64,000 nucleotides of DNA from Escherichia coli (GCF_011045215.1 NZ_CP049201.1), one strand, 5' to 3'. Shown: positions 3,116 through 55,356, counted from the stretch's first letter. Translations and numbers: made by a program. The notes: a model not told the origin generated them from the sequence alone.

Positions 3116-4882
3116 ATGAATAAATCTCGTCAAAAAGAGTTAACCCGCTGGTTAAAACAGCAAAGCGTCATCTCCCAACGTTGGCTGAATATTTCTCGTC
3201 TGCTGGGCTTTGTGAGCGGCATATTGATCATTGCCCAGGCCTGGTTCATGGCGCGAATTCTGCAACATATGATTATGGAGAATATTCCCCGTGAAGCCCT
3301 GCTGCTTCCCTTTACGTTACTGGTTCTGACCTTTGTACTGCGCGCATGGGTGGTCTGGTTACGCGAACGGGTGGGTTATCACGCCGGGCAGCATATCCGC
3401 TTTGCCATCCGCCGGCAGGTTCTCGACCGTCTGCAACAAGCAGGGCCAGCGTGGATTCAGGGTAAACCTGCGGGGAGCTGGGCGACGCTGGTACTCGAGC
3501 AAATTGACGATATGCATGATTACTATGCACGCTACCTGCCGCAAATGGCGCTGGCAGTGTCGGTGCCGTTGCTGATTGTGGTGGCAATCTTCCCCTCAAA
3601 CTGGGCTGCGGCGCTCATTCTGCTGGGCACTGCACCGTTAATTCCGTTGTTTATGGCGCTGGTTGGAATGGGGGCTGCCGATGCTAACCGACGTAACTTT
3701 CTCGCTCTTGCTCGCTTAAGTGGGCATTTCCTCGATCGCCTGCGCGGCATGGAAACATTGCGTATTTTTGGTCGTGGTGAAGCTGAAATTGAAAGTATTC
3801 GTTCTGCTTCGGAAGATTTCCGCCAACGGACAATGGAAGTGCTACGGCTGGCATTTTTATCCTCCGGCATTCTCGAATTTTTTACCTCGCTGTCAATTGC
3901 TCTGGTGGCGGTCTACTTTGGTTTTTCCTATCTCGGCGAGCTGGATTTTGGTCACTACGATACTGGCGTGACGCTGGCTGCGGGTTTTCTGGCCCTGATC
4001 CTTGCGCCAGAGTTTTTCCAGCCATTACGCGATCTCGGTACGTTTTATCATGCTAAAGCCCAGGCTGTTGGTGCAGCTGACAGTCTGAAAACGTTTATGG
4101 AAACCCCGCTCGCCCATCCGCAGCGTGGCGAGGTGGAATTAGCATCGACCGATCCGGTGACCATTGAGGCCGAGGATCTGTTTATCACGTCGCCGGAAGG
4201 TAAAACGCTGGCCGGACCGCTGAACTTTACTTTGCCAGCAGGCCAACGTGCAGTGTTGGTTGGTCGCAGCGGTTCAGGTAAAAGCTCACTGCTGAACGCG
4301 CTTTCTGGTTTTCTCTCATATCAGGGATCATTACGAATCAACGGGATAGAATTACGTGATTTATCACCAGAATCATGGCGTAAACATCTCTCCTGGGTTG
4401 GGCAAAACCCACAATTACCGGCAGCAACATTGCGGGATAACGTACTACTGGCGCGACCTGATGCCAGCGAACAAGAATTACAAGCAGCGCTGGATAACGC
4501 CTGGGTCAGCGAGTTTCTACCGCTCCTGCCACAAGGCGTTGATACGCCTGTTGGCGACCAGGCTGCCCGCCTTTCCGTGGGGCAGGCGCAGCGCGTGGCG
4601 GTGGCCCGTGCGTTACTAAATCCCTGTTCGCTATTACTGTTGGATGAACCCGCTGCCAGCCTTGATGCTCACAGTGAACAGCGCGTAATGGAGGCGCTGA
4701 ATGCCGCCTCTCTGCGCCAGACAACGTTAATGGTCACCCACCAGTTAGAAGATCTTGCTGACTGGGATGTCATTTGGGTTATGCAGGATGGCCGGATTAT
4801 TGAGCAAGGACGTTACGCGGAATTAAGTGTGGCTGGTGGCCCATTCGCCACATTACTGGCCCATCGTCAGGAGGAGATTTAA
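3116..4882 (+). CDS. cydD: Cysteine/glutathione ABC exporter subunit CydD (588 aa)
   Basis: Track ORF; N-terminus MNKSRQKELTRWLKQQSVISQRWL; Walker A GRSGSGKSS, ABC signature LSVGQAQR, Walker B LLLLDEP. Confidence 0.97.
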   Translation: MNKSRQKELTRWLKQQSVISQRWLNISRLLGFVSGILIIAQAWFMARILQHMIMENIPREALLLPFTLLVLTFVLRAWVVWLRERVGYHAGQHIRFAIRRQVLDRLQQAGPAWIQGKPAGSWATLVLEQIDDMHDYYARYLPQMALAVSVPLLIVVAIFPSNWAAALILLGTAPLIPLFMALVGMGAADANRRNFLALARLSGHFLDRLRGMETLRIFGRGEAEIESIRSASEDFRQRTMEVLRLAFLSSGILEFFTSLSIALVAVYFGFSYLGELDFGHYDTGVTLAAGFLALILAPEFFQPLRDLGTFYHAKAQAVGAADSLKTFMETPLAHPQRGEVELASTDPVTIEAEDLFITSPEGKTLAGPLNFTLPAGQRAVLVGRSGSGKSSLLNALSGFLSYQGSLRINGIELRDLSPESWRKHLSWVGQNPQLPAATLRDNVLLARPDASEQELQAALDNAWVSEFLPLLPQGVDTPVGDQAARLSVGQAQRVAVARALLNPCSLLLLDEPAASLDAHSEQRVMEALNAASLRQTTLMVTHQLEDLADWDVIWVMQDGRIIEQGRYAELSVAGGPFATLLAHRQEEI

Positions 4883-6604
4883 ATGCGCGCTTTGCTACCC
4901 TATCTGGCACTGTATAAACGTCATAAATGGATGTTAAGTCTTGGTATTGTGCTGGCAATTGTGACGCTGCTCGCCAGTATCGGTCTGTTGACACTTTCCG
5001 GCTGGTTTCTCTCGGCCTCAGCGGTTGCGGGGGTTGCCGGACTGTACAGCTTCAACTATATGCTACCCGCTGCGGGCGTGCGTGGTGCAGCAATCACCCG
5101 TACTGCCGGGCGTTATTTTGAACGTCTGGTAAGTCACGACGCGACTTTCCGCGTGTTGCAGCATCTGCGCATTTACACCTTCAGCAAATTGTTGCCCCTC
5201 TCCCCTGCCGGACTGGCGCGCTATCGTCAGGGCGAATTGCTCAACCGCGTGGTGGCGGATGTTGATACGCTCGATCATCTTTACCTGCGCGTTATCTCGC
5301 CGCTGGTGGGCGCTTTTGTGGTGATTATGGTGGTGACAGTCGGGTTAAGTTTCCTTGATTTCACCCTCGCCTTTACGCTGGGCGGCATTATGTTACTGAC
5401 GCTTTTCCTGATGCCACCGCTGTTTTATCGTGCGGGAAAAAGCACCGGGCAAAATCTGACTCATCTTCGCGGACAGTATCGCCAACAACTGACGGCCTGG
5501 CTGCAAGGGCAAGCTGAGCTGACCATTTTTGGTGCCAGCGATCGTTATCGCACGCAACTAGAGAATACAGAAATTCAATGGCTGGAAGCGCAACGCCGTC
5601 AATCTGAACTGACCGCATTGTCGCAAGCGATAATGCTGCTCATTGGCGCGTTAGCGGTGATCCTGATGCTGTGGATGGCGTCTGGCGGCGTTGGCGGCAA
5701 TGCTCAACCCGGCGCGTTAATTGCCCTGTTTGTCTTTTGCGCGTTAGCCGCGTTTGAAGCACTGGCACCAGTAACGGGTGCATTTCAGCATCTGGGGCAA
5801 GTCATTGCCTCTGCCGTTCGGATCACTGATTTAACGGATCAAAAACCGGAGGTCACCTTCCCTGATACCCAAACTCGTGTTGCCAATCGCGTTTCGCTGA
5901 CGTTACGGGATGTTCAGTTCACTTATCCGGAGCAATCTCAACAGGCACTTAAAGGGATTTCTCTTCAGGTAAACGCCGGGGAACATATAGCGATTCTCGG
6001 GCGAACCGGATGCGGCAAATCAACACTGTTACAACTGCTGACCCGCGCATGGGACCCGCAACAGGGCGAGATTTTGCTTAACGATAGCCCCATAGCCAGC
6101 CTGAATGAAGCGGCTCTACGACAGACCATCAGCGTTGTTCCTCAGCGAGTGCATCTGTTTAGCGCCACGCTGCGTGATAATCTGTTACTCGCCTCGCCTG
6201 GCAGTAGTGATGAGGCTCTGGCGGTGATCTTACGTCGCGTTGGTCTGGAGAAGCTGCTCGAGGATGCAGGTCTCAACAGTTGGTTAGGTGAAGGCGGACG
6301 CCAGCTCTCCGGTGGTGAACTGCGCCGTCTGGCTATCGCCCGTGCGCTGTTACATGATGCGCCACTGGTGTTGCTGGATGAACCTACCGAAGGCTTAGAT
6401 GCCACAACCGAAAGCCGGATCCTTGAATTGCTTGCAGAAATGATGCGTGAGAAAACGGTGTTAATGGTCACCCATCGACTTCGCGGACTCTCTCGTTTCC
6501 AGCAAATAATAGTGATGGACAACGGGCAAATTATTGAGCAAGGTACTCACGCAGAACTGCTTGCCAGACAGGGGCGTTATTACCAGTTCAAGCAGGGTTT
6601 GTAA
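4883..6604 (+). CDS. cydC: Cysteine/glutathione ABC exporter subunit CydC (573 aa)
   Basis: Track ORF starting immediately after the cydD stop; Walker A GRTGCGKST, signature LSGGELRR, Walker B VLLDEPTE. Confidence 0.97.
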   Translation: MRALLPYLALYKRHKWMLSLGIVLAIVTLLASIGLLTLSGWFLSASAVAGVAGLYSFNYMLPAAGVRGAAITRTAGRYFERLVSHDATFRVLQHLRIYTFSKLLPLSPAGLARYRQGELLNRVVADVDTLDHLYLRVISPLVGAFVVIMVVTVGLSFLDFTLAFTLGGIMLLTLFLMPPLFYRAGKSTGQNLTHLRGQYRQQLTAWLQGQAELTIFGASDRYRTQLENTEIQWLEAQRRQSELTALSQAIMLLIGALAVILMLWMASGGVGGNAQPGALIALFVFCALAAFEALAPVTGAFQHLGQVIASAVRITDLTDQKPEVTFPDTQTRVANRVSLTLRDVQFTYPEQSQQALKGISLQVNAGEHIAILGRTGCGKSTLLQLLTRAWDPQQGEILLNDSPIASLNEAALRQTISVVPQRVHLFSATLRDNLLLASPGSSDEALAVILRRVGLEKLLEDAGLNSWLGEGGRQLSGGELRRLAIARALLHDAPLVLLDEPTEGLDATTESRILELLAEMMREKTVLMVTHRLRGLSRFQQIIVMDNGQIIEQGTHAELLARQGRYYQFKQGL

Positions 6605-9282: not shown

Positions 9283-9480
9283 TCACCGGTTCGGGGGCTG
9301 AAGCTGCAGTTGGCGCAGGGTACGGATATCCTCCCTGGCCTGTTCAATACAGGACAACAGGGCTGTCGAATCCGTTTTATCCTCATCGTTGTCAAAGATA
9401 ATTCCGGATTCACAGTCGATATTGTCCTGCAGCCACGCAATCAGAATATCCAGTGCGGTTTCCGTGGTTAATGATTTCAT
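9283..9480 (-). CDS. Small hypothetical protein (~65 aa from MKSLTTETALDILIAWLQDN)
   Basis: Track ORF 9283..9525(-); upstream part overlaps the preceding gene, so an internal start is assumed. Confidence 0.35.
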   Translation of the reverse strand: MKSLTTETALDILIAWLQDNIDCESGIIFDNDEDKTDSTALLSCIEQAREDIRTLRQLQLQPPNR

Positions 9481-9491
9481 GTTGTTCCTGG

Positions 9492-9980
9492 TTACCAGTT
9501 GAAAGTGGGTAAGCCCGGCAGGCATTCAGCGCTGGCATCCAGATGAATGAGACTGACGCCATAACGTCGGGTAAGTGTGACAACCAGACGACGGAACGTT
9601 TTTGACAGGCCCAGGCGCTTAAGCCGCAGAACCGGGTATGACCACGCACCGGTACGTAACAGATATCCGCTACCTGTGAAATGAATCCATTCTGATTCGC
9701 CAGTGTCATTCGTCTGATGTGATAGTGAGTACAGCCAGGCGTTGTCCTTTGCCGTGATATGCGCGGTACTGCAGCGTATGCCGGTCAGGGCCGCAGATGG
9801 TGGCGTGCGCTCTGCTGATGTCCGGTCAGATTCATCAACAACACGAAGGGAGTAGCCATTGTCGCAGGCCACGTTAATCAGTTCAGCGAGATTAACACCA
9901 TCGACGTCAACGACAATGCGCCCCATGTTCAGCGTCTGCACGTTAATACTGTCAGCTTCCAGCGTCAGGGAAAGTTTCAT
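9492..9980 (-). CDS. Hypothetical protein (162 aa) immediately downstream of the toxin gene (YeeW-position)
   Basis: Track ORF; start overlaps the stop of the upstream toxin gene (translational coupling). Confidence 0.55.
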   Translation of the reverse strand: MKLSLTLEADSINVQTLNMGRIVVDVDGVNLAELINVACDNGYSLRVVDESDRTSAERTPPSAALTGIRCSTAHITAKDNAWLYSLSHQTNDTGESEWIHFTGSGYLLRTGAWSYPVLRLKRLGLSKTFRRLVVTLTRRYGVSLIHLDASAECLPGLPTFNW

Positions 9981-12154: not shown

Positions 12155-12245
12155 GAGATGATTCCTTATAAAAAGTAAATGAATGGAAGAATGCCTGGGG
12201 ATTGGTACAGACGTGAGTCAGGGCTGCACTTTCAGGGAAACAGCA

Positions 12246-13064
12246 TTAGCGCATGCTCTCCAGCAGCGTTTCTGCCATCACCCACAATGCGCGATTGAGC
12301 TTAATGTCCGTGTCGATGCTGTGAATGGCACGGGTGTGGATACGTTTTCCTTTAGCGCTGCGACCGGAAATTCCGCCTTTCAGCATATTCTCCTGAATGG
12401 TCTGATAAGCACTCCACAGGTCCTTACCGTAATCCTCCCTGCGTCGTGGTGTCAGAATGTCGGCGGTGGTGACGGGCTGATGTTCGTCACCATAACGGTA
12501 AGTCAGTGCCGCCTGTGCCAGCGCCTGGTGTGCCGGTGGCGGCAGAATCAGCGACTGCATGGCATCACGCTTTTCCTCAATCCGGTCAAAAACGCCCACC
12601 ACTTCGTAAGCCCCTTCAATAACTTTCTCCACCACGTCTCCCCGGTGCGGAACACGCACCTCTCCCAGAGACTGACCGCAGACGCACCCGTTCTGACAAA
12701 CGAATCTGAAGTAACCCGGCAGCATCTGGTAGCTGGAGGTACCGTCATGGGAATTGAGCAGGATGATTTCCGGGACATGCTGTCCGTTTATCTCTCCGGC
12801 CCGCCGCAGACGCAGCATGTGTTTGGTATACCCCCGGCGGCCCGGGTCACGTACGCGGGTCTGGCAGGCGAAGAAGGGCTGAAAGCCCTCCCGCTGCAGA
12901 CTTTCCAGCACGGTGATGGTGGGGATATACGTATAGCGTTCACTGCGGGAGGTATGCCGGTCTTCCCCAAAAATACCGGGTACATAGTGCATCAGCTCTT
13001 CATGTGTCAGCGGACGGTCACGGCGTATCTGGTTCGCATAACCAAAACGACTTGCTAATCGCAT
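12246..13064 (-). CDS. DUF932-family protein (YafZ/YfjQ-like), 272 aa
   Basis: Track ORF; size and position near the GTPase end of the CP4-type module. Confidence 0.7.
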   Translation of the reverse strand: MRLASRFGYANQIRRDRPLTHEELMHYVPGIFGEDRHTSRSERYTYIPTITVLESLQREGFQPFFACQTRVRDPGRRGYTKHMLRLRRAGEINGQHVPEIILLNSHDGTSSYQMLPGYFRFVCQNGCVCGQSLGEVRVPHRGDVVEKVIEGAYEVVGVFDRIEEKRDAMQSLILPPPAHQALAQAALTYRYGDEHQPVTTADILTPRRREDYGKDLWSAYQTIQENMLKGGISGRSAKGKRIHTRAIHSIDTDIKLNRALWVMAETLLESMR

Positions 13065-19612: not shown

Positions 19613-19727
19613 TTATTCTATTGATAGCAGGGCAGTCACGCAAGAGAAACAGGAGGGTATGAGGGGTTTGTATCATGTTTTCAGTTGGTTAACGCAATGT
19701 AATCAGGCATTTCCCCTGGCAGAGTGT

Positions 19728-20600
19728 TCAGAAGAAAATCCAGTTCCATACCGCACGGGCAACAGAGACCACCGTGTCACGAACAGCGCGCAGGGCCGTA
19801 CGGACAACAGAGGCAACACAGACGCTCTCCGCTGTGTCAAATATCCGGTCCACCGCACCGGTAAACTGTTCACGGGCCTGAGAGCGGACAGATTCCGTGC
19901 GCAGCTCGTCCTGCAGTCGGGTCATCAGGGGACTGGCGGCATGGTCGGGAAGCGCTGTCATGAGCGCACTGACCAGCGTATCCAGTTCCCAGCCGGTGCG
20001 GGCCGATACGGCCACAACCGGATGTGCGGGCCGGAACAGACGGAATACCGCCTCCGTTTTTTCGCGAATGTTCCGTGCCTGTGCGGGAGAGGGCTGAATG
20101 CCGGCCATATCCCATTCATGGCAGGGCTCCGTTTTGTCGGCCTGCGTCACCACAAACAGCACCTGCTGATGTCCCCGGTGCAGGATGTGTCGCCAGAAAT
20201 ACTCATCCACAGACAGGGCACGGTCATCGGCTTTAATCAGCCACAGTACCAGGTCAAGTTCAGGCAGAATGTCACGGTACAGGGCTTCATACTCTGCATC
20301 CCTGTCCCGGCTCTCGCCCACCCCGGGCAGGTCAGTGATAACCATGCTGTGACCGTGGCCACTCAGACGGAAGCGCTGCACTTCCCGGGTGCCGGCGTGA
20401 ACATCACTGACCGGGGTGACCTCCCCCTGAAACAGTGCATTACAGAGTGAGGATTTACCGGCCCCGCTTTTACCCATAATGCCAATCACGGGTTCGTGAC
20501 TGGTGAGTTTGCGCAGATGTTCCAGGATGTGACGGGAAAGTGAGTAAGGCAGGGAGGAGAGCGGTTTTTCAATTGCCTCAATGGCATCAGACGGATTCAT
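19728..20600 (-). CDS. YeeP/YfjP/YkfA-family GTPase (50S ribosome-binding GTPase fold)
   Basis: Track ORF 19728..20639(-); P-loop GIMGKSGAGKSS, DLPG switch motif; start likely at MNPSDAIEAIEK. Confidence 0.8.
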   Translation of the reverse strand: MNPSDAIEAIEKPLSSLPYSLSRHILEHLRKLTSHEPVIGIMGKSGAGKSSLCNALFQGEVTPVSDVHAGTREVQRFRLSGHGHSMVITDLPGVGESRDRDAEYEALYRDILPELDLVLWLIKADDRALSVDEYFWRHILHRGHQQVLFVVTQADKTEPCHEWDMAGIQPSPAQARNIREKTEAVFRLFRPAHPVVAVSARTGWELDTLVSALMTALPDHAASPLMTRLQDELRTESVRSQAREQFTGAVDRIFDTAESVCVASVVRTALRAVRDTVVSVARAVWNWIFF

Positions 20601-21254
20601 ACATGTATTCCCGGTGAAAAAAGACAAAACCCCGCGCACCGGAAAGGTGGCGGGGGATTCACGGAGATAATATCTGCCTGAAATTATTTAGGATGCAGGT
20701 ATCTTCAGATAATCATACCTCCAGAATTTTGTTCTTAATAGTTGAGTAGTGGTATTTGGTTTCCCTGAGAGAATATAAAGGTGAATCATACTGTATTGAG
20801 TTTGATTCTATTTGTACTGAGACAGGTATCTTCATGATTATAATCAAAAGTCGGGTGGATTGGTCTGGCGCTCATTATTTTTTCGAATAAACTCACTAAT
20901 TATTGTAACCATCCCAGAGGAGATGATTTTATGTATAATTGTGGTGAATCATATTCAGAATACGACATATCATTATCTGACGATGAAAACTATAACGATG
21001 ACTATTATCGTGAACGCCCGTGCCCGGGAGAAGTTTTCGGCTATGATAATACTGAGGATAATGATGAGGCGGCATCTGATTATGCACTAAAAATAAATGA
21101 AAACTCTGATTAATACGAGGTGGCTGATAATAAGACAATCAATGACAAATATTAATGAATAAACATAATCAGGCGCTCAATACTTGATTTAATCTGGGCG
21201 CCTGATTAAAATCTGAGGTAACATATAATAATTTTCATCAAAATAGTATTTATG

Positions 21255-22274
21255 TGTGTGATTCATAGACATCGTTTCAATTTTCTCAGCTCAAGTTCAA
21301 GCTTGTAATTCTGTTCCTGAATATGCTCCTTATTGGGCTGATAGCTTGCGTGAACGGCATCCGAGTATGGCGTTTTCTCAGCAAGTTCAAAGTAGCGCTC
21401 CATCGGCGTTTTACCGTTGTGAGCGCAATGAGGACGTTCCCAGTTATAGTAATGCTGCCATTCTGCCAGTCGCTCCTCCAAGTTATCAGTAGCGATATCT
21501 ACGGTAGCGTAAAACTCAGCTTTGTCTGTCTTTTGGGAGCGTTCAACTTTGCCATTAAGATGGGGTGATGCTGGTTTATTTGGACGAAACTTGATGCCGT
21601 ATTCTTTCAGTCTTTCCTGCACCTTAACGGCAAAAAACTCTCTTCCCCGGTCTGTCTGAAAGCGCTGAATCGGGAACGGCATTTCTTCAATAAAACAATC
21701 AATGAAATCCAGTGTGTTTGTAGTCGTGCGACGGGAATAGAGCCTCAGAACTCTGTAGCGAGTGCAATCATCAACAGATGTGTACTGATATAAGCCGGGG
21801 CCAATTTTACAGGTATCCATCTGAACCCAATCACCGGGAACAGGGCGTTCGTAGCGAATGAAATCAGCTTTACGCCGGAGTTTAACAACAGGTTTAACCT
21901 GATTCTGGCAAAGAACTTTGTGGATTGTTGCCATTGCAAGTGAGATTGAATGAAGTCGTTTTAACTCGCTTTGAATCCGTCTTGCACCCAGATTTCGCTG
22001 GGAACGTAACTCCAGAATCAGAGCGACTTCGCAAGTGCCGGTTTTCGTTGATGGCGAACGCTTAGGGCGACGGCTGTGGCTTTCCAGACCAGCGATGCCC
22101 TGAGCCAGATATCTGCGCCACCATTTACGCAATGTGGGGCGGGAAATACCGCAGCGACGGCATACGAACCCCGCGTCACCAGACGTTTCATAGAGTTTTA
22201 CCCACTGTAGCCGCTGCTGAATTTCCCTGTTCATAGTAAGGCATTATAGTGAAACGATGTCTATGAATCACACA
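21255..22274 (-). mobile_element. ~1.0-kb insertion sequence with 25-bp perfect terminal inverted repeats and one DDE transposase (IS481-family-like)
   Basis: Left end TGTGTGATTCATAGACATCGTTTCA (21255-21279) is the exact reverse complement of the right end (22250-22274); encloses the transposase ORF. Confidence 0.75.
21263..22234 (-). CDS. DDE transposase (323 aa), N-terminal HTH plus integrase-core domain
   Basis: Track ORF; N-terminal HTH region (CRRCGISRPTLRKWWRRY), integrase-core region with W..D-/-D-/-E spacing (WVQMDTC... TDRGREF ... ERSQKT). Confidence 0.8.
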   Translation of the reverse strand: MNREIQQRLQWVKLYETSGDAGFVCRRCGISRPTLRKWWRRYLAQGIAGLESHSRRPKRSPSTKTGTCEVALILELRSQRNLGARRIQSELKRLHSISLAMATIHKVLCQNQVKPVVKLRRKADFIRYERPVPGDWVQMDTCKIGPGLYQYTSVDDCTRYRVLRLYSRRTTTNTLDFIDCFIEEMPFPIQRFQTDRGREFFAVKVQERLKEYGIKFRPNKPASPHLNGKVERSQKTDKAEFYATVDIATDNLEERLAEWQHYYNWERPHCAHNGKTPMERYFELAEKTPYSDAVHASYQPNKEHIQEQNYKLELELRKLKRCL

Positions 22275-22424
22275 AGTAAAGAACCTTGCAGAGGCGTTCG
22301 AGCATTATAACGAATGGCATCCGCATAGTGCGCTGGGTTATCGCTCGCCACGGGAATATCTACGACAGCGGACCTGTAATGGGTTAAGTGATAACAGATG
22401 TCTGGAAATATAGGGGCAAATCCA
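22275..22424 (+). mobile_element. IS2 right-end remnant (last ~40 codons of the orfB transposase plus right terminal repeat)
   Basis: Encodes ...[42 protein letters not shown] and ends ...TGGAAATATAGGGGCAAATCCA, which matches the IS2 terminus as I remember it; truncated where the IS481-like element begins. Confidence 0.7.
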
Positions 22425-22598
22425 GCGTAATACCAACCATATAATCTCTAGGAGGAGTATTTTTACAATAGTAAGAACTATCATACATCCCCCTACAGAT
22501 TCAGAGAAGAAAAAGAATTAATTATCGTCAAAACTTTCGACAAATCACATCATTAACATGATAACAACTAACAAAGGACAAGCTAATGAAAGATGTGA

Positions 22599-23651
22599 TT
22601 ACTGCATCAATACGGTAGCTATCGCACTGCCAGAAAACGATCCAGCATCAATTCTGTTTGTATCTATAACCCTATATTGTGACGTTATATCAAATGTTCT
22701 ACTTCCACTGATAACCCCCGAAAATTCCTTCGCACCATCAACAGTCAATGTGCACTTTCCATTATCTCCACATCGAGTTACATTCCCCCCTTCCCCTGAT
22801 ATTAGATTACTACCTTTAATGGTTATATCTACTCTGGTTGGTGAACTGCAATTAATCACTAATCCGGCCTTAGCAAAGTGTCCATCACGAGCCTGGGCTG
22901 ATGTTATTGCATTATGATTTATTGATATATCTTTATTCCCTGCTATATTACAGGATGCCAGAACATTCACTCTTACAGGGGCATATCTGTTCTCCATATT
23001 AACTACTGCAGACTCAACACCCCCACCATCAGAACAATATTTTTCCCCCTTATACCATTCCTCAGATCCTATTTTTAGCGGAATGTTTAAATCATATATT
23101 CCGGCTAAAGCACTGCCCCTCTCTATCGTTACCCTCAATTTGGTACTCTGAAAGTTGTTATATACCAGAGGATATCTGTATCCCGGGACAATTTCTCCTT
23201 CTGGGAATGGTCTGTCATACCAATCATAGTTATCATAAACACCAACGTAAGTCTGATAACCATTATAAATACCACGTTTATTATACCCCCCGGAAATAAT
23301 CTGAATACTCCCTTTCAGACCATTACCCAATCGTATGTTATTACTATCAACTGGCATCGCAATCCATGTTGCCTGACTCTTTGAGCCTTTACCCGAAAGA
23401 ATCTTAACCGGCGAGCTAACAGGCACATTATGACGCTGGACCCAGCTAACAACTGCAGACGTTCTTGGTGCCAGACCGGGCAATACAATATCAAAATAAC
23501 TTGCTGTGTTTCCTGAGGAAATTGTTACATCCGGAATAGTAACATTGTTACCATCTAACTGCCACAATATTTGCATATCACGACAAGGTTCATATGCAAA
23601 TGAACAACCTGATATAAAAACAAAAAGATAAATTATTTTCTCACACCACAT
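22599..23651 (-). CDS. Secreted adhesin-like protein (~350 aa), possible fimbrial tip adhesin; AT-rich
   Basis: Track ORF 22599..23714(-); signal peptide MWCEKIIYLFVFISGCSFA; cysteine pairs; beta-rich C-terminus ending ...GSAIATVLMQ; no chaperone or usher gene nearby. Confidence 0.45.
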   Translation of the reverse strand: MWCEKIIYLFVFISGCSFAYEPCRDMQILWQLDGNNVTIPDVTISSGNTASYFDIVLPGLAPRTSAVVSWVQRHNVPVSSPVKILSGKGSKSQATWIAMPVDSNNIRLGNGLKGSIQIISGGYNKRGIYNGYQTYVGVYDNYDWYDRPFPEGEIVPGYRYPLVYNNFQSTKLRVTIERGSALAGIYDLNIPLKIGSEEWYKGEKYCSDGGGVESAVVNMENRYAPVRVNVLASCNIAGNKDISINHNAITSAQARDGHFAKAGLVINCSSPTRVDITIKGSNLISGEGGNVTRCGDNGKCTLTVDGAKEFSGVISGSRTFDITSQYRVIDTNRIDAGSFSGSAIATVLMQ

Positions 23652-24797
23652 ACCTTTCACACCTTGTATATCCCCAGACCAGAAAATCCCTGAGCGCATA
23701 AATAACCCTCTCACTACGAACCGAAGACAACTCCATTAACAACGGAAAAACAAACTCAGATACCTTTCCTGGTATTAAAACATCCTTCTCTTTTACTTTT
23801 TTTGCACATCTTCTCCTTAACCATAAAACAGAGAAAGAATAAAATTCGCACACAGGATATATAGATACTTTATCCCAGTAAATAACAAAAAAACGATCTT
23901 TTTATCTACAAAAACGACACAATAAAGACAAACAAACCAAAAACACAAAAAAACACCAAAAATAACTCCAATTGGCAGCAAAATAACAAATAAAAAGATC
24001 GTTTAATTTGCATTAAGCAGCATTTTTAACCGTACAAACAAAAAAGCAAAAATTAGACAAAAATCAAAAACAAGTATATCAAAAAATGGAAAAACAAAAG
24101 ACAGTAATATTATGAGTTGCTTTTTTGTTCACATGTAAACAGGTGAATTTCATTTCAGAGATACTGATTATCCTGAAAATACTTATTCATTAATTACCAA
24201 CACTTTTTCATGTAAACATCACGCTAATTGCATGGAAAAAGAAAGGAAACTTTTTAGTCGGCATGAAGACACTTTTGTAATTACTGTACAGATACTAATT
24301 GTTCCTGCCCTTCCTGACCCGATAGCGTGACAATCCATTTACATGGTTCCATGAAATTGTGAACTGCCTGATAATCTAATGTCGTGTCAACACCACGATC
24401 TTTGACCGTCTTATATATCACTGGTACTAATAGATTAACCCGACCACAGGAAAAATATTTCCGTCAGGTATTTGGATATGCCCGGAACCAAGATCCACAA
24501 AACAGACCACTGACGTTTGTCAATGTAATACTGGCCTTCTATGGTAAATGTTGTGCTCATCAATACACAGATGTGATTTGTCTGAACCTTTACTATGTTA
24601 CTATGGATGGTATTTTACGGGAGAGCTGGAAATACGTTACGCATCCGGAGCTCTTCCCAAAGAATTAACAGCTTGAGCTCGAAAAGGGAAACCTGTTCTG
24701 AATTCCACCTCGGAAAATATAATAACCAGTTTTCTTATGACTATTATGCTTAAACACTGCCCAGATATGTCAGGGAAGAAAGAGTATGATAGACTCA

Positions 24798-25730
24798 TCA
24801 GCTGATGATCTCAGAAAAATCCAACTTTATCTGATGAATATCCTCAAGCTGTACTGATGGAAAATAATATCCCTGAACCCCCCATAAACCAGTTCCTGAA
24901 GCAGCATGCAGATAATCCTTATTTTCAACACCCTCGGCAATAACCAGAGGGCAAAATCTTTTTATATTGTCTATTAATGCAGAAAAATGCGGTTTCATAC
25001 TGTATTTTTGAAAAAAACTTTTGTCAAGTTTCACTGCCTGGAATTTATTTCTTATCAATGTATGTATTGTACTGTTACCACTCCCTAAATCATCCAGCCA
25101 GATATGTTCTGACAAATTAATGAGAAAAGGAATTATTGCATCATCAGCCTTTATGACCGGATATGTTTCAGAAATCTCAAGAACAATAAAATCATATGAC
25201 TTTATTATATCTTGAATGTTTTTATTTCTGTATATATACTGACATGTATCATAATCGACGTTAAGAGAACACAGTATATTATGCTTGCTAAAAAAAGAAG
25301 CTTTACTTATTATTTTTCTTATCTGTAATTCCAGCAAATCAATTTTCATCTCTGCTGTAAACATATTCAGCGTTTTCACGGTAGGAAGTTGTTTTCCGTT
25401 AACAGAATAAAATCGGCTCAGAATCTCCACCGCAATCAGCCTGTTACTGTTACCTGCCGTCACGACAGGCTCTGCTATGAAGATAGTTTTCATAAACTGC
25501 CCCATATGTGAATTGTTGCTTTCTCTTATGACTGTTGCTGTCAACGAATTAAACAAAAAGTCCCTGTTCATCCCTTCATCTGCCATGCCCTCCCCCCGGA
25601 ATAAATCAGTACCAGACAGAGCGCAGCACTTCTTTACAGCACAAAACAGCAATATAATCAATTGCTTTTTATTTATTACGTGACAACCATTACAAAAAAA
25701 CAAAATATTTTTCCTTTCTTTTCCTTTCAT
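24798..25730 (-). CDS. EAL-domain protein (cyclic-di-GMP phosphodiesterase-like), AT-rich
   Basis: Track ORF; EAL-family motifs AVEILSR, DDLGSGNS, KLDKSF, AEGVE, QGYYFP; start may be the internal MADEGMNRDF. Confidence 0.65.
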   Translation of the reverse strand: MKGKERKNILFFCNGCHVINKKQLIILLFCAVKKCCALSGTDLFRGEGMADEGMNRDFLFNSLTATVIRESNNSHMGQFMKTIFIAEPVVTAGNSNRLIAVEILSRFYSVNGKQLPTVKTLNMFTAEMKIDLLELQIRKIISKASFFSKHNILCSLNVDYDTCQYIYRNKNIQDIIKSYDFIVLEISETYPVIKADDAIIPFLINLSEHIWLDDLGSGNSTIHTLIRNKFQAVKLDKSFFQKYSMKPHFSALIDNIKRFCPLVIAEGVENKDYLHAASGTGLWGVQGYYFPSVQLEDIHQIKLDFSEIIS

Positions 25731-25833
25731 CCATACTTACATAAATAAAAAACTGTAACAGCGCAAAGAATTATGACTATCATCTGCTCCTTCATACTGA
25801 AAAAAGATCATTTGATTTTCGGTTTTTAATGAT

Positions 25834-26475
25834 GTGTTAATATTAAATTATGGCGATATTCTTCTTGTTAACCCATCTTTGATGACAAGCTTTCTTACAT
25901 TTTCAGATAAATTCACTGAAGTACCTCTGAATGAAGATACAGTAAACCATTATATACACCATCGCCATACAGGGGAAAAACCAACCTACGACGGGCCTGT
26001 TCATTTTCTGAAAAAATGTTTTGCCTACCCGGAAGTGTTGTCAGAACTCATAAACAATATAAATTATGAAAATCATATCCATCCGGAATTCAGAGAAGCT
26101 GTCTGTTTCTCGTTATTGTCAATTTTTAATACCCGCCCCGCTTTAATAAACTTCCTTTCATCTGGCATCCCAACTTTTTCAGGAAAAGTACGAAACATAT
26201 TACTGTCAGATATATCACGACAATGGAAGTTGCGCGATATATCTGAATATGTATATATGAGTGAAAGTCTGATAAAGAAAAAACTTCTGTCTGAAAACAC
26301 ATGTTTCAGTAAAATTTTACTCGAAGTACGAATGTTTTCAGCCAGAAACTTACTGGAACAGAAATACTCAGTGAAACACGTTGCTGAAAAATGTGGCTAT
26401 TCCAGTACATCCTACTTTGTCTATCTTTTCAGACAACACTTTAATATAACACCACGACAATTCACCATGATATGA
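25834..26475 (+). CDS. AraC-family transcriptional regulator, AppY/EnvY-like
   Basis: Track ORF; C-terminal double HTH ...RQWKLRDISEYVYMSESLIKKKLLSENTCFSKILLEVRMFSARNLLEQKYSVKHVAEKCGYSSTSYFVYLFRQHFNITPRQF. Confidence 0.7.
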   Translation: MLILNYGDILLVNPSLMTSFLTFSDKFTEVPLNEDTVNHYIHHRHTGEKPTYDGPVHFLKKCFAYPEVLSELINNINYENHIHPEFREAVCFSLLSIFNTRPALINFLSSGIPTFSGKVRNILLSDISRQWKLRDISEYVYMSESLIKKKLLSENTCFSKILLEVRMFSARNLLEQKYSVKHVAEKCGYSSTSYFVYLFRQHFNITPRQFTMI

Positions 26476-27065
26476 TCGTCCGGAAAAACAGATTCAATGG
26501 CGTTGACAAATGAACCCGAGCAATAACCATGCGGGCTGACAACGGGGCAGAACCTGAGCCAGCCGGGAGTCATTCCCTGGGTCACAACTTCATAACTTGC
26601 CACAAATACTCGTGTCAATACTTCGCAACCAGACTCAATCACCCGGCTGCGTGAACCAGTTAATCCAGCATCCAACAGAGGAACGGGCACAGCAGAGCGT
26701 TCTGGCAACGTCGCTGACACGGTCACCCCGGTACAGCATCAGCATAGCAGTCAGTCTGCGGGCATAATTTTATCGTGTGTTTTATGAATGGCTTTCTGCA
26801 TCAGGCGTCGTTCGTCACGGGAAATTGGTGCTATGATCGGCATTGCTCAGTACGGTTGGTGATTTGTTTTGATTTGGCGATTGACCAGATCGCACCATCC
26901 GGGCTGAGTTCCCTCAAAGGGATCTACTATTCCGCGCAGCTATTTAGCTACCAGCATAAATCACACTAAAATATTAAAATTATAATTCGCGTTGAAATTA
27001 TATTCAGCCCCTGAAGTTAACAGAGGCTGGTCGATTTGTATGATATGATGATTTCTGGTTAATTA

Positions 27066-27372
27066 TCAGTGAAGGCTGATCGTATCCATAATCGTACCAT
27101 CTTCAGCGCCTTTCAGAGCGAGATTGGCTTCGTAATATTTACCTTCAGCCATTAAGCTCTGCGCACTCCTCACTTTCTGCTGAGTCTGTTTTAAAGGCAT
27201 AAGCCACTGTGTTTCAGATATATTAATTCCTGCCAGTTGTAGTTTTTCAATTGCACCTTTTTTGTCACCTTTATCCAGTTTTTTATTTGCTTCATCGATG
27301 ACTTTCTGCTTTTCTGGCGTAGTTGTAAAATCTTCTGCCAGCGTCAGTTGACTGTTAATAATGACATAAATA
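27066..27372 (-). pseudogene. 5'-truncated gene fragment (C-terminal ~100 codons, no start codon) abutting the IS3-family element
   Basis: Reverse-strand frame reads ...DIYVIINSQLTLAEDFTTTPEKQKVIDEANKKLDKGDKKGAIEKLQLAG...AEGKYYEANLALKGAEDGTIMDTISLH*; open frame begins at a stop with no ATG. Confidence 0.3.
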
Positions 27373-27461
27373 TCGCCCTCTTGAGGGTTTTTTTATCTTT
27401 TCTGACCAAATGCGTATTTTCATGAAAGGAGATCACTCAATAACCCCCTGTGTCAGCATAG

Positions 27462-28004
27462 TTGTCGCCTCAACTTTTTAAGGAGATAACAATGCCAGGA
27501 CAACCAATATCAAGTGAGCTCAAAGAGAAAGGACTGATATGGCTTTTACCACCATACTGCTGGTCACATCGTCAGATAGCCCGTAAGCTGAAGATCAGTG
27601 CCTCAGTTGTATCAAAATGGAGATATGAGTTAGTGGAGCAAGGACTTTTACCTGAAAATGAAAAGATTACCTCCGTTGATGTTGAAGACTGGACACCGGA
27701 GCGTCGATTCTCAGTTGTTCTTGAGACGGCTACGCTGTCAGAAATGGAGCTTGCTGATTATTGTCGACGCATGGGATTGTTTGTTGAACAGGTTAAAGAA
27801 TGGCGGGCTATCTCAATTCAGGCGCATGAAAAAAAATTGACGGAAAATATTCGAACAGACAGGGCATTGCGTGACGCAAAAAATAAGTTACGAGAACTGG
27901 AGAAAGAGCTTAAGCGCAAAGATAAAGCTCTGGCGGAAGCTGCAGCCCTGCTTATATTGAGGGAAAAGTTCAATGCCCTCTGGGACAACAGCGAGGAAGA
28001 CTGA
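27462..28004 (+). CDS. IS3-family transposase OrfA (HTH plus coiled-coil region)
   Basis: Track ORF; alternative start MPGQPISSELKEK at ~27492; leucine/charged-rich C-terminal region. Confidence 0.8.
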   Translation: MSPQLFKEITMPGQPISSELKEKGLIWLLPPYCWSHRQIARKLKISASVVSKWRYELVEQGLLPENEKITSVDVEDWTPERRFSVVLETATLSEMELADYCRRMGLFVEQVKEWRAISIQAHEKKLTENIRTDRALRDAKNKLRELEKELKRKDKALAEAAALLILREKFNALWDNSEED

Positions 28005-45352: not shown

Positions 45353-45571
45353 CTATTTACGATAGTATCTTCGCATTTGTAGATAGAGTTGTAACCAAAT
45401 CCCAGCACCTCCCCATAAGCCAACTACTGCGCCAATTATTCCGTATTTTACATACACCTCAGAAGGTATTGGTTCCCGAGCTATAAACCAGATACTAACC
45501 ACTATTCCAATAGAGCAAGTAGCTATAGATATAAGTAACAACTTAATAAGAAGTAGTAGATGTTTTTTCAT
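45353..45571 (-). CDS. cdiI: Putative CdiI immunity protein, small inner-membrane protein (72 aa)
   Basis: Track ORF; start overlaps the cdiA stop; two predicted transmembrane helices. Confidence 0.65.
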   Translation of the reverse strand: MKKHLLLLIKLLLISIATCSIGIVVSIWFIAREPIPSEVYVKYGIIGAVVGLWGGAGIWLQLYLQMRRYYRK

Positions 45572-54804: not shown

Positions 54805-54819
54805 TCTGATAAACCTGAC

Positions 54820-55347
54820 TTATCTCTCCGGCACATCCACAGCAAGCGGGTGCTGCACACGCCACTGGCGCGCCTCTTCACGACTGACCTGTGCACCCCG
54901 GAAATTCATCACCCGCAACCCGGTCTGCTGCCCACGGTGGTACAGCGAACGCCAGCACAGACGGGGAAAAATATCCTGCCGGACAAGACGACTCATATCC
55001 GGGGTATGTCCAAAAGGGGCAATCCAGTCACAGACCCACATCCGGTCGCCGCTGTTCCAGTCCGACTGAGGCATGAGAATTGCCGGCTGCGTAAGATAAC
55101 GCGCCTCTGCCTCCGGGCTGAGCCAGGCCTGGCTCATGAAGAAAACCGGTCGCCCCTGCTCTGTTGCCACCACATACTGTCGGTGCTTAATCACCGGCAG
55201 CAGCAGGTCCGGCAGGGTATGCAGTGGCGCATCACGATGCAGGGGGGAGTGCATCCACAACCAGACGGCCGCCCCCAGAACTTCCGCCTCATTGACCGGC
55301 TCACCGGAATACAGGGGACTCAGAACGTCATATTTCCCGTTACGCAT
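54820..55347 (-). CDS. cdiC: CdiC, HlyC/CyaC-family toxin-activating lysine acyltransferase (175 aa)
   Basis: Track ORF; VWLWMHSPLHRDAPL and SGDRMWVCDWIAPFG align with the HlyC motifs SWLWASSPLHRNWPV and SGDRKWFIDWIAPFG (HlyC recalled from memory); lies between cdiB and cdiA. Confidence 0.85.
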   Translation of the reverse strand: MRNGKYDVLSPLYSGEPVNEAEVLGAAVWLWMHSPLHRDAPLHTLPDLLLPVIKHRQYVVATEQGRPVFFMSQAWLSPEAEARYLTQPAILMPQSDWNSGDRMWVCDWIAPFGHTPDMSRLVRQDIFPRLCWRSLYHRGQQTGLRVMNFRGAQVSREEARQWRVQHPLAVDVPER

Positions 55348-55356
55348 GAAATTTTC

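What the first reader, a model, noticed from the sequence alone, without database searches (positions are those of the whole stretch)
22599..26475. AT-rich adhesin/EAL/AraC remnant without assembly genes
A secreted adhesin-like protein (350 aa) sits next to the IS2 remnant with no chaperone, usher or major subunit gene. About 1 kb of A/C-rich low-complexity DNA (23700-24400) separates it from an EAL-domain gene, which is divergent from an AppY/EnvY-like AraC regulator gene. This may be a fimbrial locus eroded by IS activity that kept only its tip adhesin and regulators, or an unrelated secreted-protein module.
Basis: inference. Interest (0 to 1): 0.4.

Follow-up and report, generated by a model that had tools for sequence, protein, structure and literature searches.

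The report
Gutted Pap-like fimbrial operon remnant
This is the leftover of a P-pilus-like fimbrial operon in which everything between the regulator gene papB and the last gene, a PapG-like tip adhesin, has been lost, so the adhesin now sits directly behind an intact pap-type on/off switch with no assembly machinery; it is an ordinary decay product with a few curious details.

Summary
The 350-aa ORF (22599-23651, minus strand) is a two-domain fimbrial tip adhesin. Its AlphaFold model matches full-length PapG (Foldseek E 8e-17). Its C-terminal half is about 33% identical to PixG and SfpG. Homologues (51-66% identical) are the last gene of intact Pap-like chaperone-usher operons. The 64-kb window has no usher, chaperone, pilin or PapI gene.

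The "low-complexity" spacer holds a truncated papB (23641-23853). It also holds the pap-family phase-switch signature: two inverted GATC boxes exactly 102 bp apart (23895 and 23997).

The papB sequence matches intact papB genes up to about codon 69. It then joins the adhesin signal peptide near codon 4, at 23649-23653. There is no IS element at this junction.

The EAL protein is closest to the anti-FlhD4C2 factors STM1697 and YdiV, but it keeps all the canonical phosphodiesterase residues. The AraC gene lacks about 21 N-terminal codons. The divergent AraC/EAL pair also occurs in a phage-plasmid-like context without fimbrial genes.

In relatives the EAL, AraC or adhesin genes are broken by frameshifts, IS66 or IS2. 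My verdict is an eroded fimbrial locus containing a new member of the G-adhesin kind. Interest is modest.

The parts
21263..22234 (-). IS481-family transposase gene. It bounds the module on the adhesin's 3' side.
   Evidence: 323-aa ORF. Annotated as an IS481 family transposase in the syntenic C5 and 52F4 loci. 93% nt identity to ISEc18 beside the adhesin homologue on plasmid p7_33_46A-3.
22264..22424 (+). IS2 (IS3-family) 3'-end remnant, including the terminal inverted repeat.
   Evidence: The C5 annotation reads 'integrase core domain-containing protein, incomplete, missing N-terminus' at the equivalent position. The sequence ends ...GGGGCAAATCCA. I recognise this as the IS2 right end from memory. 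It is 82% identical to an IS3-family element elsewhere in L001.
22599..23651 (-). PapG-like two-domain fimbrial tip adhesin gene (350 aa from ATG 23651). Lectin domain about residues 20-225, pilin domain about residues 226-350. It is orphaned here.
   Evidence: AlphaFold2 model pLDDT 83. Foldseek against PDB: PapG 6cd2_B E 7.7e-17, 7lhg_G E 8.2e-16, PapG lectin domain TMt 0.73, PapG pilin domain TMt 0.77. Family profile against PDB sequences: the top 4 hits are all the PapG pilin domain, E 0.03-0.17. tblastn: PixG 33% (E 5e-15) and SfpG 33% (E 3e-11). Homologues are the terminal gene of intact chaperone-usher operons.
23649..23653 (.). Fusion junction between papB (about codon 69 of the intact gene) and the adhesin signal-peptide coding region (about codon 4).
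   Evidence: Similarity to intact papB loci (RM8082, C5 plasmid A) ends at 23649. Similarity to adhesin homologues begins at about 23653. Alignments A4 and A5 show a 9-bp deletion 13 nt upstream, then identity to papB up to ...GAAAGGTATG, then adhesin-type sequence.
23641..23853 (-). Truncated papB (70 codons). The last 34 residues of the intact 103-aa gene are missing. Its stop lies 8 nt inside the adhesin ORF.
   Evidence: Pfam PapB PF03333 E 3e-15, covering profile positions 12-63 of 91. Matches the first 69 residues of intact 103-aa PapB from RM8082 and C5 plasmid A, apart from a 3-residue (KEV) deletion, then YVV-stop.
23891..23905 (.). Promoter-proximal GATC box (GATC at 23895-23898).
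   Evidence: AAACGATCTTTTTAT is one arm of a perfect 15-nt inverted repeat. 0 matches expected in shuffles.
23990..24004 (.). Promoter-distal GATC box (GATC at 23997-24000), 102 bp from the proximal one.
   Evidence: The 102-bp spacing is conserved in C5, in 6 of the 7 other C5-type loci (101 bp in L016), and in the L011/L012, L020 and L028 loci. Two GATC boxes 102 bp apart are described as the signature of pap-family operons (PMC2909390).
23854..24797 (-). Regulatory spacer between EAL and papB. It is T/G-rich on the transcribed strand and contains short degenerate repeats. No PapI gene is present.
   Evidence: Composition. Imperfect 10-11-nt tandem repeats at 23908-23971. None of the small ORFs hits Pfam. 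No Rfam family. IS66 is inserted at 24492-24499 in relatives.
24798..25493 (-). Stand-alone EAL-domain protein gene (231 aa from ATG 25493; the longest ORF runs to 25730).
   Evidence: Pfam EAL E 3.5e-20. The closest solved relatives are STM1697 (8e-32) and YdiV (6e-18). The canonical residues E(IL)xR, N, ExxE, DD, K, EGVE and QG are all present, and the C-terminal half aligns with active YahA/PdeL. Homologues are 224-229 aa.
25834..26475 (+). AraC-family regulator gene (GadW/YdeO-like), 213 aa from GTG. Its N-terminal ~21 codons are lost to in-frame stops.
   Evidence: Pfam HTH_18 and HTH_AraC. NCBIfam YdeO 169.6 bits, below the 348 cut-off. Homologues are about 234 aa, and the upstream frame reads ...Y*KKII*FSVFNDV.

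Best explanation
The region is the remnant of a Pap-like (pi-class) chaperone-usher fimbrial operon.

**What survives**
- A divergent AraC/EAL gene pair.
- A pap-type Dam/Lrp phase-variation switch: two GATC boxes 102 bp apart.
- The first two-thirds of the papB regulator gene.
- The operon's last gene, a PapG-like tip adhesin, fused directly to papB.

**What was lost**
An illegitimate recombination or deletion removed the major pilin, usher, chaperone and minor pilins, about 8-9 kb in intact relatives. It joined papB to about codon 4 of the adhesin signal peptide. The adhesin now borrows a papB-derived ATG and carries a chimeric signal peptide.

**Shown**
- The fold and homology of the adhesin.
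- The position of the junction.
- The absence of assembly genes and PapI from the window.
- The presence of the switch signature.
- Decay of the module in sister strains.

**Inferred**
- The adhesin can still be transcribed from the papBA-type promoter. With no cognate chaperone or usher in cis it cannot build a fimbria.
- With papB truncated and no papI, the switch can no longer sustain an ON state by itself.
- The locus is therefore most likely a non-functional relic drifting towards loss.
- The EAL protein most likely still hydrolyses c-di-GMP, because all catalytic residues are kept across 43-55% identical homologues. The AraC protein probably regulates it. Together they form a separable sessility/motility module.
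For: **Adhesin identity**
- Foldseek against full-length PapG gives E 7.7e-17 and 8.2e-16. Both domains also match separately.
- In the profile search of PDB sequences, the top four hits are all the PapG pilin domain.
- PixG and SfpG are 33% identical over residues 171-349.
- There are 22 homologues. Those at 51-66% identity are the terminal gene of intact PapB-A-C-D-J-...-G type operons.

**Junction**
- Nucleotide similarity to intact papB loci ends at 23649, and similarity to adhesin genes starts at about 23653.
- The reference intact operon with the same head (96% nt identity) is on C5 plasmid A.

**Missing parts**
- No usher, chaperone, pilin or PapI is found in 64 kb.

**Switch**
- GATC sites at 23895 and 23997 are 102 bp apart, inside perfect 15-nt inverted boxes. 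None is expected by chance.
- This is the published pap-family signature (PMC2909390).

**Decay in sister loci carrying the same fusion**
- EAL is frameshifted (L015-17) or cut by IS66 (L018).
- AraC is frameshifted or truncated in every sister copy.
- IS2 is inserted in the adhesin gene in strain 52F4.

**EAL residues**.
Against: - The adhesin ORF is intact in 35 or more contigs, with 0 non-synonymous and at most 2 synonymous differences. A relic would not be expected to stay this clean unless the event is very recent.
- The switch keeps its exact 102-bp geometry in the window.
- No intact operon was found that combines this exact regulatory head with this adhesin allele. A single internal deletion is therefore not proven, and import of an adhesin cassette by recombination is equally possible.
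- Expression, export and enzyme activity were not and could not be tested here.
Confidence: 0.82

Rival explanations
1. Functional orphan adhesin. The fusion is a working module in which a stand-alone, phase-variable G-adhesin is exported and then built, in trans, onto pili made by a related chaperone-usher machinery elsewhere in the genome (for example on a plasmid). This would give the cell an alternative tip specificity.
For: - The ORF is intact and identical in protein sequence across many isolates.
- It keeps a plausible signal peptide and a complete pilin domain.
- The switch geometry is preserved.
- Strain C5 carries two chromosomal copies of the orphan and also plasmid A. The plasmid has an intact operon with a 96% identical head and a full papB and papI.
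- The usher+chaperone family is present in 317 of 5426 complete E. coli genomes.
- A second, independently built 'GATC switch then lone adhesin' arrangement exists in L011/L012.
Against: - The adhesin is interrupted by IS2 in strain 52F4.
- The neighbouring EAL and AraC genes decay freely in sister strains.
- papB is truncated, and there is no papI in the window.
- The signal peptide has a chimeric N-region, MWCEK, with no net positive charge. Homologues have MKK.
- Adaptor/adhesin donor-strand specificity is usually tight. This is general knowledge and was not tested here.
Confidence: 0.15
2. Cassette import rather than internal deletion. The adhesin, with IS481 and the IS2 remnant, arrived as a mobile cassette. 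It recombined into the papB of a locus that had already lost, or never had, its structural genes. The window never contained a complete operon of its own.
For: - The IS481-adhesin-papB' block shows 0-2 substitutions per gene between isolates, while both flanks differ by 1-4% plus indels.
- An IS481-family element also sits beside the homologue on p7_33_46A-3.
- Homologues have a papB-like gene or remnant immediately upstream. In L010 the upstream ORF ends 'GYLSTTLGRIGGYL*'. In L011 the upstream ORF's stop overlaps the adhesin ATG.
- F2_407_2_2 has a distal papB-[adhesin remnant]-papI-dsbA module.
- No intact operon pairs this head with this allele.
Against: - The result is the same remnant either way.
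- The junction has no IS end or target duplication.
- The uneven divergence can also come from gene conversion of the flanks by paralogous copies. C5 has three copies of the head.
Confidence: 0.3
3. The 350-aa protein is an unrelated secreted protein, and the EAL and AraC genes have nothing to do with fimbriae.
For: - Pfam and NCBIfam give no hit for the protein.
- The AraC/EAL pair does occur without fimbrial genes in a phage-plasmid-like context.
Against: - Fold, profile and tblastn evidence all point to PapG/PixG/SfpG-type adhesins.
- Gene context in five intact operons agrees.
- The gene is physically fused to papB.
Confidence: 0.02

Closest known systems
PapG, the tip adhesin of P pili (pap operon, uropathogenic E. 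coli)
   Same: - Two-domain architecture: an N-terminal lectin domain and a C-terminal pilin domain. The model matches both PapG domains (TMt 0.73 and 0.77) and the full-length protein (E about 1e-16).
- Homologues occupy the last position of PapB-A-(H)-C-D-J-...-G type operons.
   Different: - Only 12-18% sequence identity.
- No Pfam PapG_N hit, and PapG_C is below threshold.
- The receptor is unknown.
- In the window the gene has no operon around it.
PixG and SfpG (G-adhesins of the Pap-related Pix and Sfp fimbriae)
   Same: These are the closest named sequence relatives: 33% identity over residues 171-349, E 5e-15 and 3e-11. They belong to Pap-related operons, some of them plasmid-borne.
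   Different: The N-terminal 170 residues, which form most of the receptor-binding domain, show no detectable sequence similarity. The family here is annotated only as 'hypothetical protein'.
pap-family Dam/Lrp/PapI epigenetic phase switch
   Same: Two GATC boxes in inverted orientation, exactly 102 bp apart, lie just upstream of a papB gene. This is the published signature (PMC2909390; PMC12388093).
   Different: - There is no divergent papI. In intact relatives papI sits at the 3' end of the operon, and in the window it is absent.
- papB lacks its last 34 residues (about a third of the protein).
STM1697 / YdiV (EAL-like anti-FlhD4C2 factors) and stand-alone fimbria-linked EAL phosphodiesterases (SfaY, STM0551, MrkJ)
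   Same: - The closest solved relatives are STM1697 (E 8e-32) and YdiV.
- The two key FlhD-contact residues of STM1697, F160 and L173, are conserved (PMC5622320).
- Like SfaY and STM0551, it is a small EAL-only protein encoded beside a fimbrial operon (PMC3487979, PMC6385356).
   Different: - Unlike STM1697 and YdiV, it keeps every canonical catalytic residue (E, R, N, ExxE, DD, K, E, Q).
- It lies upstream of the switch, not at the promoter-distal end as described for sfaY (reference title).

Membership tests
Chaperone-usher two-domain tip adhesin (PapG/PixG/SfpG type) | C-terminal pilin domain homologous to that of G-adhesins | tested here: met
   Foldseek hits to the PapG pilin domain: 3me0_B TMt 0.77 and 2wmp_B TMt 0.77. 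The profile aligns residues 237-343 end-to-end with the PapG pilin domain, E 0.03. tblastn to PixG and SfpG.
Chaperone-usher two-domain tip adhesin (PapG/PixG/SfpG type) | N-terminal receptor-binding (lectin) domain of PapG-like fold | tested here: met
   PapG lectin-domain structures 4z3j, 1j8r and 4z3e: E about 3e-9 to 1e-8, TMt 0.69-0.73. Model pLDDT is 83. Similarity is at the fold level only, with 12-13% identity.
Chaperone-usher two-domain tip adhesin (PapG/PixG/SfpG type) | Encoded in an operon with a periplasmic chaperone and an outer-membrane usher | tested here: not met
   Met for homologues. Not met in the window: no usher or chaperone in 64 kb.
Chaperone-usher two-domain tip adhesin (PapG/PixG/SfpG type) | Sec signal peptide | tested here: inconclusive
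   A hydrophobic core and an SFA|Y cleavage motif are present, and A19 is invariant in the family. The N-region MWCEK is chimeric and uncharged, where homologues have MKK. No signal-peptide predictor was available.
Pfam PapG_N / PapG_C | Score above the gathering threshold | tested here: not met
   The window protein has no hit even at E 10. Homologue P0004 scores 17.2 bits on PapG_C against a cut-off of 20, and P0017 scores 17.6 bits on MrpH_C against a cut-off of 27.
pap-family Dam/Lrp phase-variation switch | Two GATC boxes with conserved flanks, 102 bp apart, upstream of papB/A | tested here: met
   GATC at 23895 and 23997, inside 15-nt perfect inverted boxes, with 0 expected by chance. 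The spacing is conserved in relatives.
pap-family Dam/Lrp phase-variation switch | A PapI-like co-regulator | tested here: not met
   tblastn with two PapI homologues found nothing in the window. Small ORFs in the spacer have no Pfam hit.
pap-family Dam/Lrp phase-variation switch | Mutually exclusive Lrp binding and Dam methylation; heritable ON/OFF states | not testable with these tools
   This needs methylation mapping or reporter assays.
PapB/FocB regulator family | Full-length PapB domain | tested here: not met
   The Pfam PapB score is 56.5 bits, above the 29.4 cut-off, but only profile positions 12-63 of 91 are covered. 34 C-terminal residues are missing compared with intact copies that are otherwise near-identical.
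EAL c-di-GMP phosphodiesterase | EAL domain with the catalytic and metal-binding residues (E..R, N, ExxE, DD, K, E, Q) | tested here: met
   Pfam EAL 72.8 bits. The motifs AVEILSR, SLNVD, LEISE, LDDLGSG, VKLDK, AEGVE and VQGY are present. The C-terminal half aligns residue for residue with active YahA/PdeL. The motifs are kept in 43-55% identical homologues. Loop 6 is DLGSGNST rather than the consensus DFG(T/A)GYSS, which I recall from memory.
EAL c-di-GMP phosphodiesterase | Hydrolysis of c-di-GMP | not testable with these tools
   This needs an enzyme assay.
YdiV/STM1697 anti-FlhD4C2 factors | Degenerate EAL active site, with no c-di-GMP binding or hydrolysis | tested here: not met
   STM1697 and YdiV have G/N, Q/L and G at positions where the window protein has DD, E and E. 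Their lack of activity is stated in PMC5622320.
YdiV/STM1697 anti-FlhD4C2 factors | FlhD-binding interface residues | tested here: inconclusive
   Of the 11 STM1697 contact residues, L136, F160, K167 and L173 are identical. V147I and Y180F are conservative changes. K175D, H176N, L172A and L116A are changed, and V115 falls in a gap (alignment, residue list).
AraC/XylS regulators, GadW/YdeO subgroup | C-terminal double helix-turn-helix; equivalog-level match | tested here: inconclusive
   HTH_18 scores 49.8 bits and HTH_AraC 44.9 bits, both above their cut-offs. The YdeO model scores 169.6 bits, below its 348 cut-off. GadW is about 40% identical. The N-terminal ~21 residues are missing.

The most novel reading that the evidence does not exclude
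PapG-like adhesin genes of this family are repeatedly wired on their own to a pap-type GATC switch, in at least two independently built versions.

- **Window type.** The switch is followed by a truncated papB fused to the adhesin.
- **L011/L012 type.** A 102-bp switch is followed by a degraded papB remnant whose stop overlaps the adhesin ATG. This copy sits inside an ICE-like element next to an intimin-like gene.

These could be stand-alone, phase-variable 'tip cassettes'. Related chaperone-usher machines encoded elsewhere would pick them up. That machinery family is present in about 6% of complete E. coli genomes, and it occurs together with the orphan in strain C5. The cell could then vary adhesin specificity without duplicating the whole operon.
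Probability: 0.12. Interest if true: 0.55.

Novelty: new member of a known kind. Interest (0 to 1): 0.3.

Why it matters
Mostly it does not matter much. It is a clear, well-documented example of how fimbrial operons decay inside mosaic islands of bovine-associated E. coli.

Three points have some value:

- **Annotation.** A family annotated only as 'hypothetical protein' can now be labelled as a PapG/PixG/SfpG-type G-adhesin of a Pap-like fimbria found on E. coli and Klebsiella plasmids and islands.
- **The EAL protein.** It sits in the STM1697/YdiV clade but has an intact catalytic site. That makes it a useful comparison point for how anti-FlhD4C2 factors evolved from active phosphodiesterases.
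- **Orphan adhesins.** If orphan adhesins behind pap switches are used in trans, this would be a cheap route to adhesin diversification.

Tried and rejected
- **Family scans of the adhesin.** Pfam and NCBIfam returned nothing, even at E 10. Fold search and gene context were needed instead.
- **PapI search.** I looked for a divergent PapI in the EAL-papB spacer. Eight small ORFs gave no Pfam hit, and tblastn with two PapI proteins was negative for the whole window.
- **RNA families.** Rfam found nothing in 21000-28000.
- **Promoter and terminator scan.** It is uninformative: 15 promoter-like sites against 14.4 expected.
- **Lipoprotein idea.** 'ISGC' in the signal peptide resembles a lipobox. 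I rejected this because the Cys is absent from most homologues, while the FA|Y cleavage site is conserved.
- **papB frameshift idea.** A strong SD+ATG is followed by an A7 run that puts it out of frame with papB. I rejected a mutation because A7 is identical in every relative, including intact operons. It remains unexplained.
- **papB remnants in L010-L012.** tblastn found nothing significant. The resemblance is visible only by eye, so I treat it as a lead.
- **Co-occurrence in strain 52F4.** I could not tell whether 52F4 also carries the chaperone-usher operon, because only 40 of 320 records were listed.

Full report
**What is in the sequence**

On the minus strand, read from right to left, the region contains:
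- an EAL-domain gene: 24798-25730 as the longest ORF, with a probable start at ATG 25493, giving 231 aa like its homologues
- a 0.94-kb spacer
- a 70-codon papB-like ORF (23641-23853)
- a 350-aa ORF (22599-23651), overlapping the papB fragment by a few bases
- about 175 bp of unassigned DNA
- an IS2 right-end remnant (about 22264-22424)
- an IS481-family transposase gene (21263-22234)

On the plus strand an AraC-family gene (25834-26475) runs divergently from the EAL gene.

It is about 0.6 kb, and it is the mirror image of a T/G-rich regulatory region plus the papB fragment.

**The 350-aa protein is a PapG-type tip adhesin**

Pfam and NCBIfam give no hit. A search of 5.8 billion proteins found only 22 relatives at 51-100% identity, all unnamed.

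- **Fold.** An AlphaFold2 model built on their alignment reached mean pLDDT 83. Its best Foldseek matches in the PDB are full-length PapG (6cd2_B E 7.7e-17; 7lhg_G E 8.2e-16, TM 0.57/0.62). Next come the isolated PapG lectin domain (TMt 0.69-0.73) and the isolated PapG pilin domain bound to PapD (TMt 0.77). Other two-domain adhesins follow: LpfD, CupB6, CsuE and FimH.
- **Profile.** A family profile searched against PDB sequences returned PapG as its four best hits (E 0.03-0.17). It aligns residues 237-343 with the PapG pilin domain up to the C-terminus.
- **Sequence.** tblastn against plasmids found PixG (33% identity over residues 171-349, E 5e-15) and SfpG (33%, E 3e-11).

**Context of the homologues**

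Homologues at 51-66% identity are the last gene of intact Pap-like operons. These operons contain PapB or another regulator, a major pilin, an 835-aa usher, a chaperone, PapJ and two to four minor pilins before the adhesin. They occur on:
- Klebsiella plasmids (L006-L009)
- the bovine E. coli plasmid p7_33_46A-3 and its near twin L019
- contigs L020, L021 and L022

The closest relatives (84% and 73%) are orphans next to intimin/invasin-like genes in ICE-like DNA (L010-L012).

**The junction**

The window's papB fragment matches the intact 103-aa papB of strain RM8082 and of plasmid A of strain C5 through residue 69, apart from a 9-bp (KEV) deletion. After ...GAAAGGTATG the sequences diverge. 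From about 23653 downward the window instead aligns with the 5' ends of adhesin homologues, starting inside the signal-peptide coding region.

The consequences are:
- The adhesin's start codon is papB-derived.
- Its first residues are MWCEK, where homologues have MKK or MKSVSSVRK.
- The truncated papB frame stops 8 nt inside the adhesin ORF.
- There is no IS end or target duplication at the junction.

On C5 plasmid A the same head (96% nt identity) is followed by eight genes for pilins, usher, chaperone and fibrillin. Three unrelated adhesin-like genes and papI come after those. About 8-9 kb of assembly genes are therefore missing from the window.

tblastn with ushers, chaperones, pilins, PapI and DsbA from these operons found only the papB fragment in the whole 64 kb. 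Pfam scans of the large ORFs show transposases, helicases, a ShlB-type transporter, ABC transporters and a T6SS ImpA/VasL-like protein, with no fimbrial genes.

**The spacer is a pap-type switch**

GATC sites at 23895 and 23997 are exactly 102 bp apart. Each lies in a 15-nt box (AAACGATCTTTTTAT), and the two boxes are perfect inverted copies. No match is expected by chance.

Two GATC boxes at 102-bp spacing plus a PapI-like protein are described as the signature of pap-family Dam/Lrp phase variation (PMC2909390; mechanism reviewed in PMC12388093).

The spacing is kept in C5, in 6 of the 7 other C5-type loci (101 bp in L016), and in L020, L011/L012 and F2_407_2_2. RM8082 has an 18-bp repeat expansion that makes it 120 bp.

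The window lacks papI, and its papB lacks the last 34 of 103 residues. From my own knowledge of PapB mutagenesis (Xia and Uhlin 1999, listed), the region around residues 53-70 is needed for oligomerisation and DNA binding. I therefore infer that the fragment is inactive. I infer, and have not shown, that the switch cannot hold an ON state without PapB and PapI supplied in trans.

**EAL and AraC**

*EAL.* The protein's closest solved relatives are STM1697 (E 8e-32) and YdiV (E 6e-18). Both are EAL-like proteins that neither bind nor hydrolyse c-di-GMP and that act by binding FlhD (PMC5622320).

- **Active site.** The window protein keeps the residues those two proteins have lost. It has DD where they have GD or GN. 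It has EGVE where they have GGQE or GGID. It has ExxE where they have QxxE or LxxE. It has EILSR where they have EIITH or ELITH. Its C-terminal half aligns motif for motif with active YahA/PdeL.
- **Homologues.** The same motifs persist in homologues at 43-55% identity.

I therefore favour an active phosphodiesterase. The conserved F160 and L173 equivalents leave FlhD binding open.

*AraC.* The AraC gene is GadW/YdeO-like. Compared with 234-aa homologues it has lost about 21 N-terminal codons to in-frame stops.

*The pair.* The divergent AraC/EAL pair recurs, at 57% and 53% identity, in a phage-plasmid-like context without fimbrial genes (its neighbours include a P7-type C1 repressor). It is thus a separable module. 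Small EAL proteins beside fimbrial operons are known: SfaY, STM0551, MrkJ and FimK (PMC3487979, PMC6385356).

**Distribution and decay**

Only 5 of 5426 complete E. coli genomes match the region, all from cattle. Only C5 and 52F4 have the papB-adhesin fusion. The fusion protein cluster has 42 members on 35 contigs.

C5 has two chromosomal copies, both in Ag43/Cah-GTPase islands, plus the intact plasmid operon.

In sister copies the module is damaged in several independent ways:
- EAL is frameshifted in L015-17 and cut by IS66 at 24492-24499 in L018. The same IS66 insertion is present in C5 plasmid A.
- AraC is frameshifted or truncated in every copy except the window's.
- In 52F4 an IS2 interrupts the adhesin gene itself.

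This pattern is what a dispensable relic would show. Against that, the adhesin ORF is otherwise identical in protein sequence everywhere. The IS481-adhesin-papB' block has 0-2 substitutions per gene, while its flanks differ by 1-4%. That fits a very recent spread of the block, or gene conversion of the flanks.

**Origin and the more interesting reading**

I found no operon that combines this head with this adhesin allele, so a single internal deletion is not proven. Three observations suggest a recurring cassette in which papB is followed by the adhesin and then papI:
- In L011/L012 the 73% homologue lies 187 bp downstream of its own 102-bp GATC pair. A degraded papB-like ORF between them has a stop that overlaps the adhesin ATG (the papB resemblance is by eye only).
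- In L010 a PapB-like C-terminus ends 60 nt upstream of the adhesin.
- In F2_407_2_2 a distal papB-[adhesin remnant]-papI-dsbA module follows the structural genes.

The window may therefore come from recombination between a papB at the operon head and such a cassette.

Whether lone adhesins behind pap switches are ever used in trans by related machinery is open. That machinery family is present in 317 of 5426 genomes. I give this reading about 0.12-0.15.

**Verdict**

The object is a new, previously unnamed member of the G-adhesin kind sitting in a decayed pap-like locus. Interest is modest.

Noticed in passing
window 23784-23819 (minus strand): Near the papB 5' end, a strong Shine-Dalgarno plus ATG (TAAGGAGAAGATG) is followed by an A7 run. 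This places the ATG out of frame with papB, giving a 17-codon ORF from that ATG. One fewer A would give MCKKVKEKDVLIPG... in frame. A7 is identical in all relatives, including intact operons, so it is not a mutation. It could be a slippage site or a leader peptide.
   Followed up: partly
L011 5093-5382 and L012 4162-4451: The 73%-identical orphan adhesin next to an intimin-like gene has its own pap-type GATC pair at exactly 102 bp, 187 bp upstream of its ATG. There is no intact papB and no assembly genes on the contig. The insert is flanked by a duplicated 5' end of a UvrD-like helicase gene.
   Followed up: partly
L024/L025 9030-10690; L026/L027: A divergent AraC/EAL pair homologous to the window's (57% and 53% identity) sits in a phage-plasmid-like context whose neighbours include a P7-type C1 repressor. 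A 43% EAL homologue is sandwiched between two AraC genes, near a TibC-like glycosyltransferase gene and with an autotransporter gene further along the contig.
   Followed up: partly
window 24492-24499: An IS66 (ISEc8) element is inserted at this 8-bp site in C5 plasmid A and in L018. The 8-bp overlap between the two BLAST pieces looks like a target-site duplication.
   Followed up: no
L002 (RM8082) 12234-12354: An 18-bp expansion of the TTTTTTGTG repeat between the two GATC boxes changes the spacing from 102 to 120 bp. RM8082 also has papB followed by a pseudogene and a 324-aa adhesin-like gene with no assembly genes. This is a second, independent erosion.
   Followed up: partly
window 21263-23853 compared with its flanks: The IS481-IS2'-adhesin-papB' block is almost invariant between isolates (0-2 substitutions in each of the adhesin, papB' and IS2' segments, somewhat more in IS481). 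The GTPase side and the switch/EAL/AraC side differ by 1-4% with indels.
   Followed up: no
L029 (strain 52F4) 3200-5164: A complete IS2 is inserted in the orphan adhesin gene, leaving a 241-aa fragment.
   Followed up: yes
L005 (C5 plasmid A) 4621-7525: Three tandem genes (319, 309 and 314 aa) with signal peptides follow the last pilin gene and precede papI. They show no BLAST similarity to each other or to the window adhesin. They may be alternative adhesins.
   Followed up: no
L019 6063-7403; L003 13221-14561; L028 15735-17069: A 446-aa secreted protein with FKBP_N/FKBP_C domains and a long coiled-coil-like middle is embedded between pilin genes of these Pap-like operons. A DsbA gene sits just before the adhesin. 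Dedicated folding helpers inside a chaperone-usher operon are unusual.
   Followed up: no
L028 (F2_407_2_2) 9449-9809 and 19713-21448: In this operon the 102-bp GATC switch sits directly before the major pilin gene, with no papB between them. papB, an adhesin C-terminal remnant, papI and dsbA lie at the distal end. The YfdX/porin'/ProQ flank matches window 26949-27414 and the RM8082 context.
   Followed up: partly
window 24037-24049 and 24117-24129: A second perfect 13-nt inverted repeat (AACAAAAAAGCAA / TTGCTTTTTTGTT) lies upstream of the distal GATC box. Its role is unknown.
   Followed up: no
window 39657-40874; 45568-57096: The island also carries an isolated T6SS ImpA/VasL-like gene. It also has a ShlB-type transporter gene (55357-57096) upstream of a 3078-aa ORF (45568-54804), which looks like a CdiB/CdiA-type two-partner system. 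RM8082 has cdiA and cdiB near its copy of the module.
   Followed up: no
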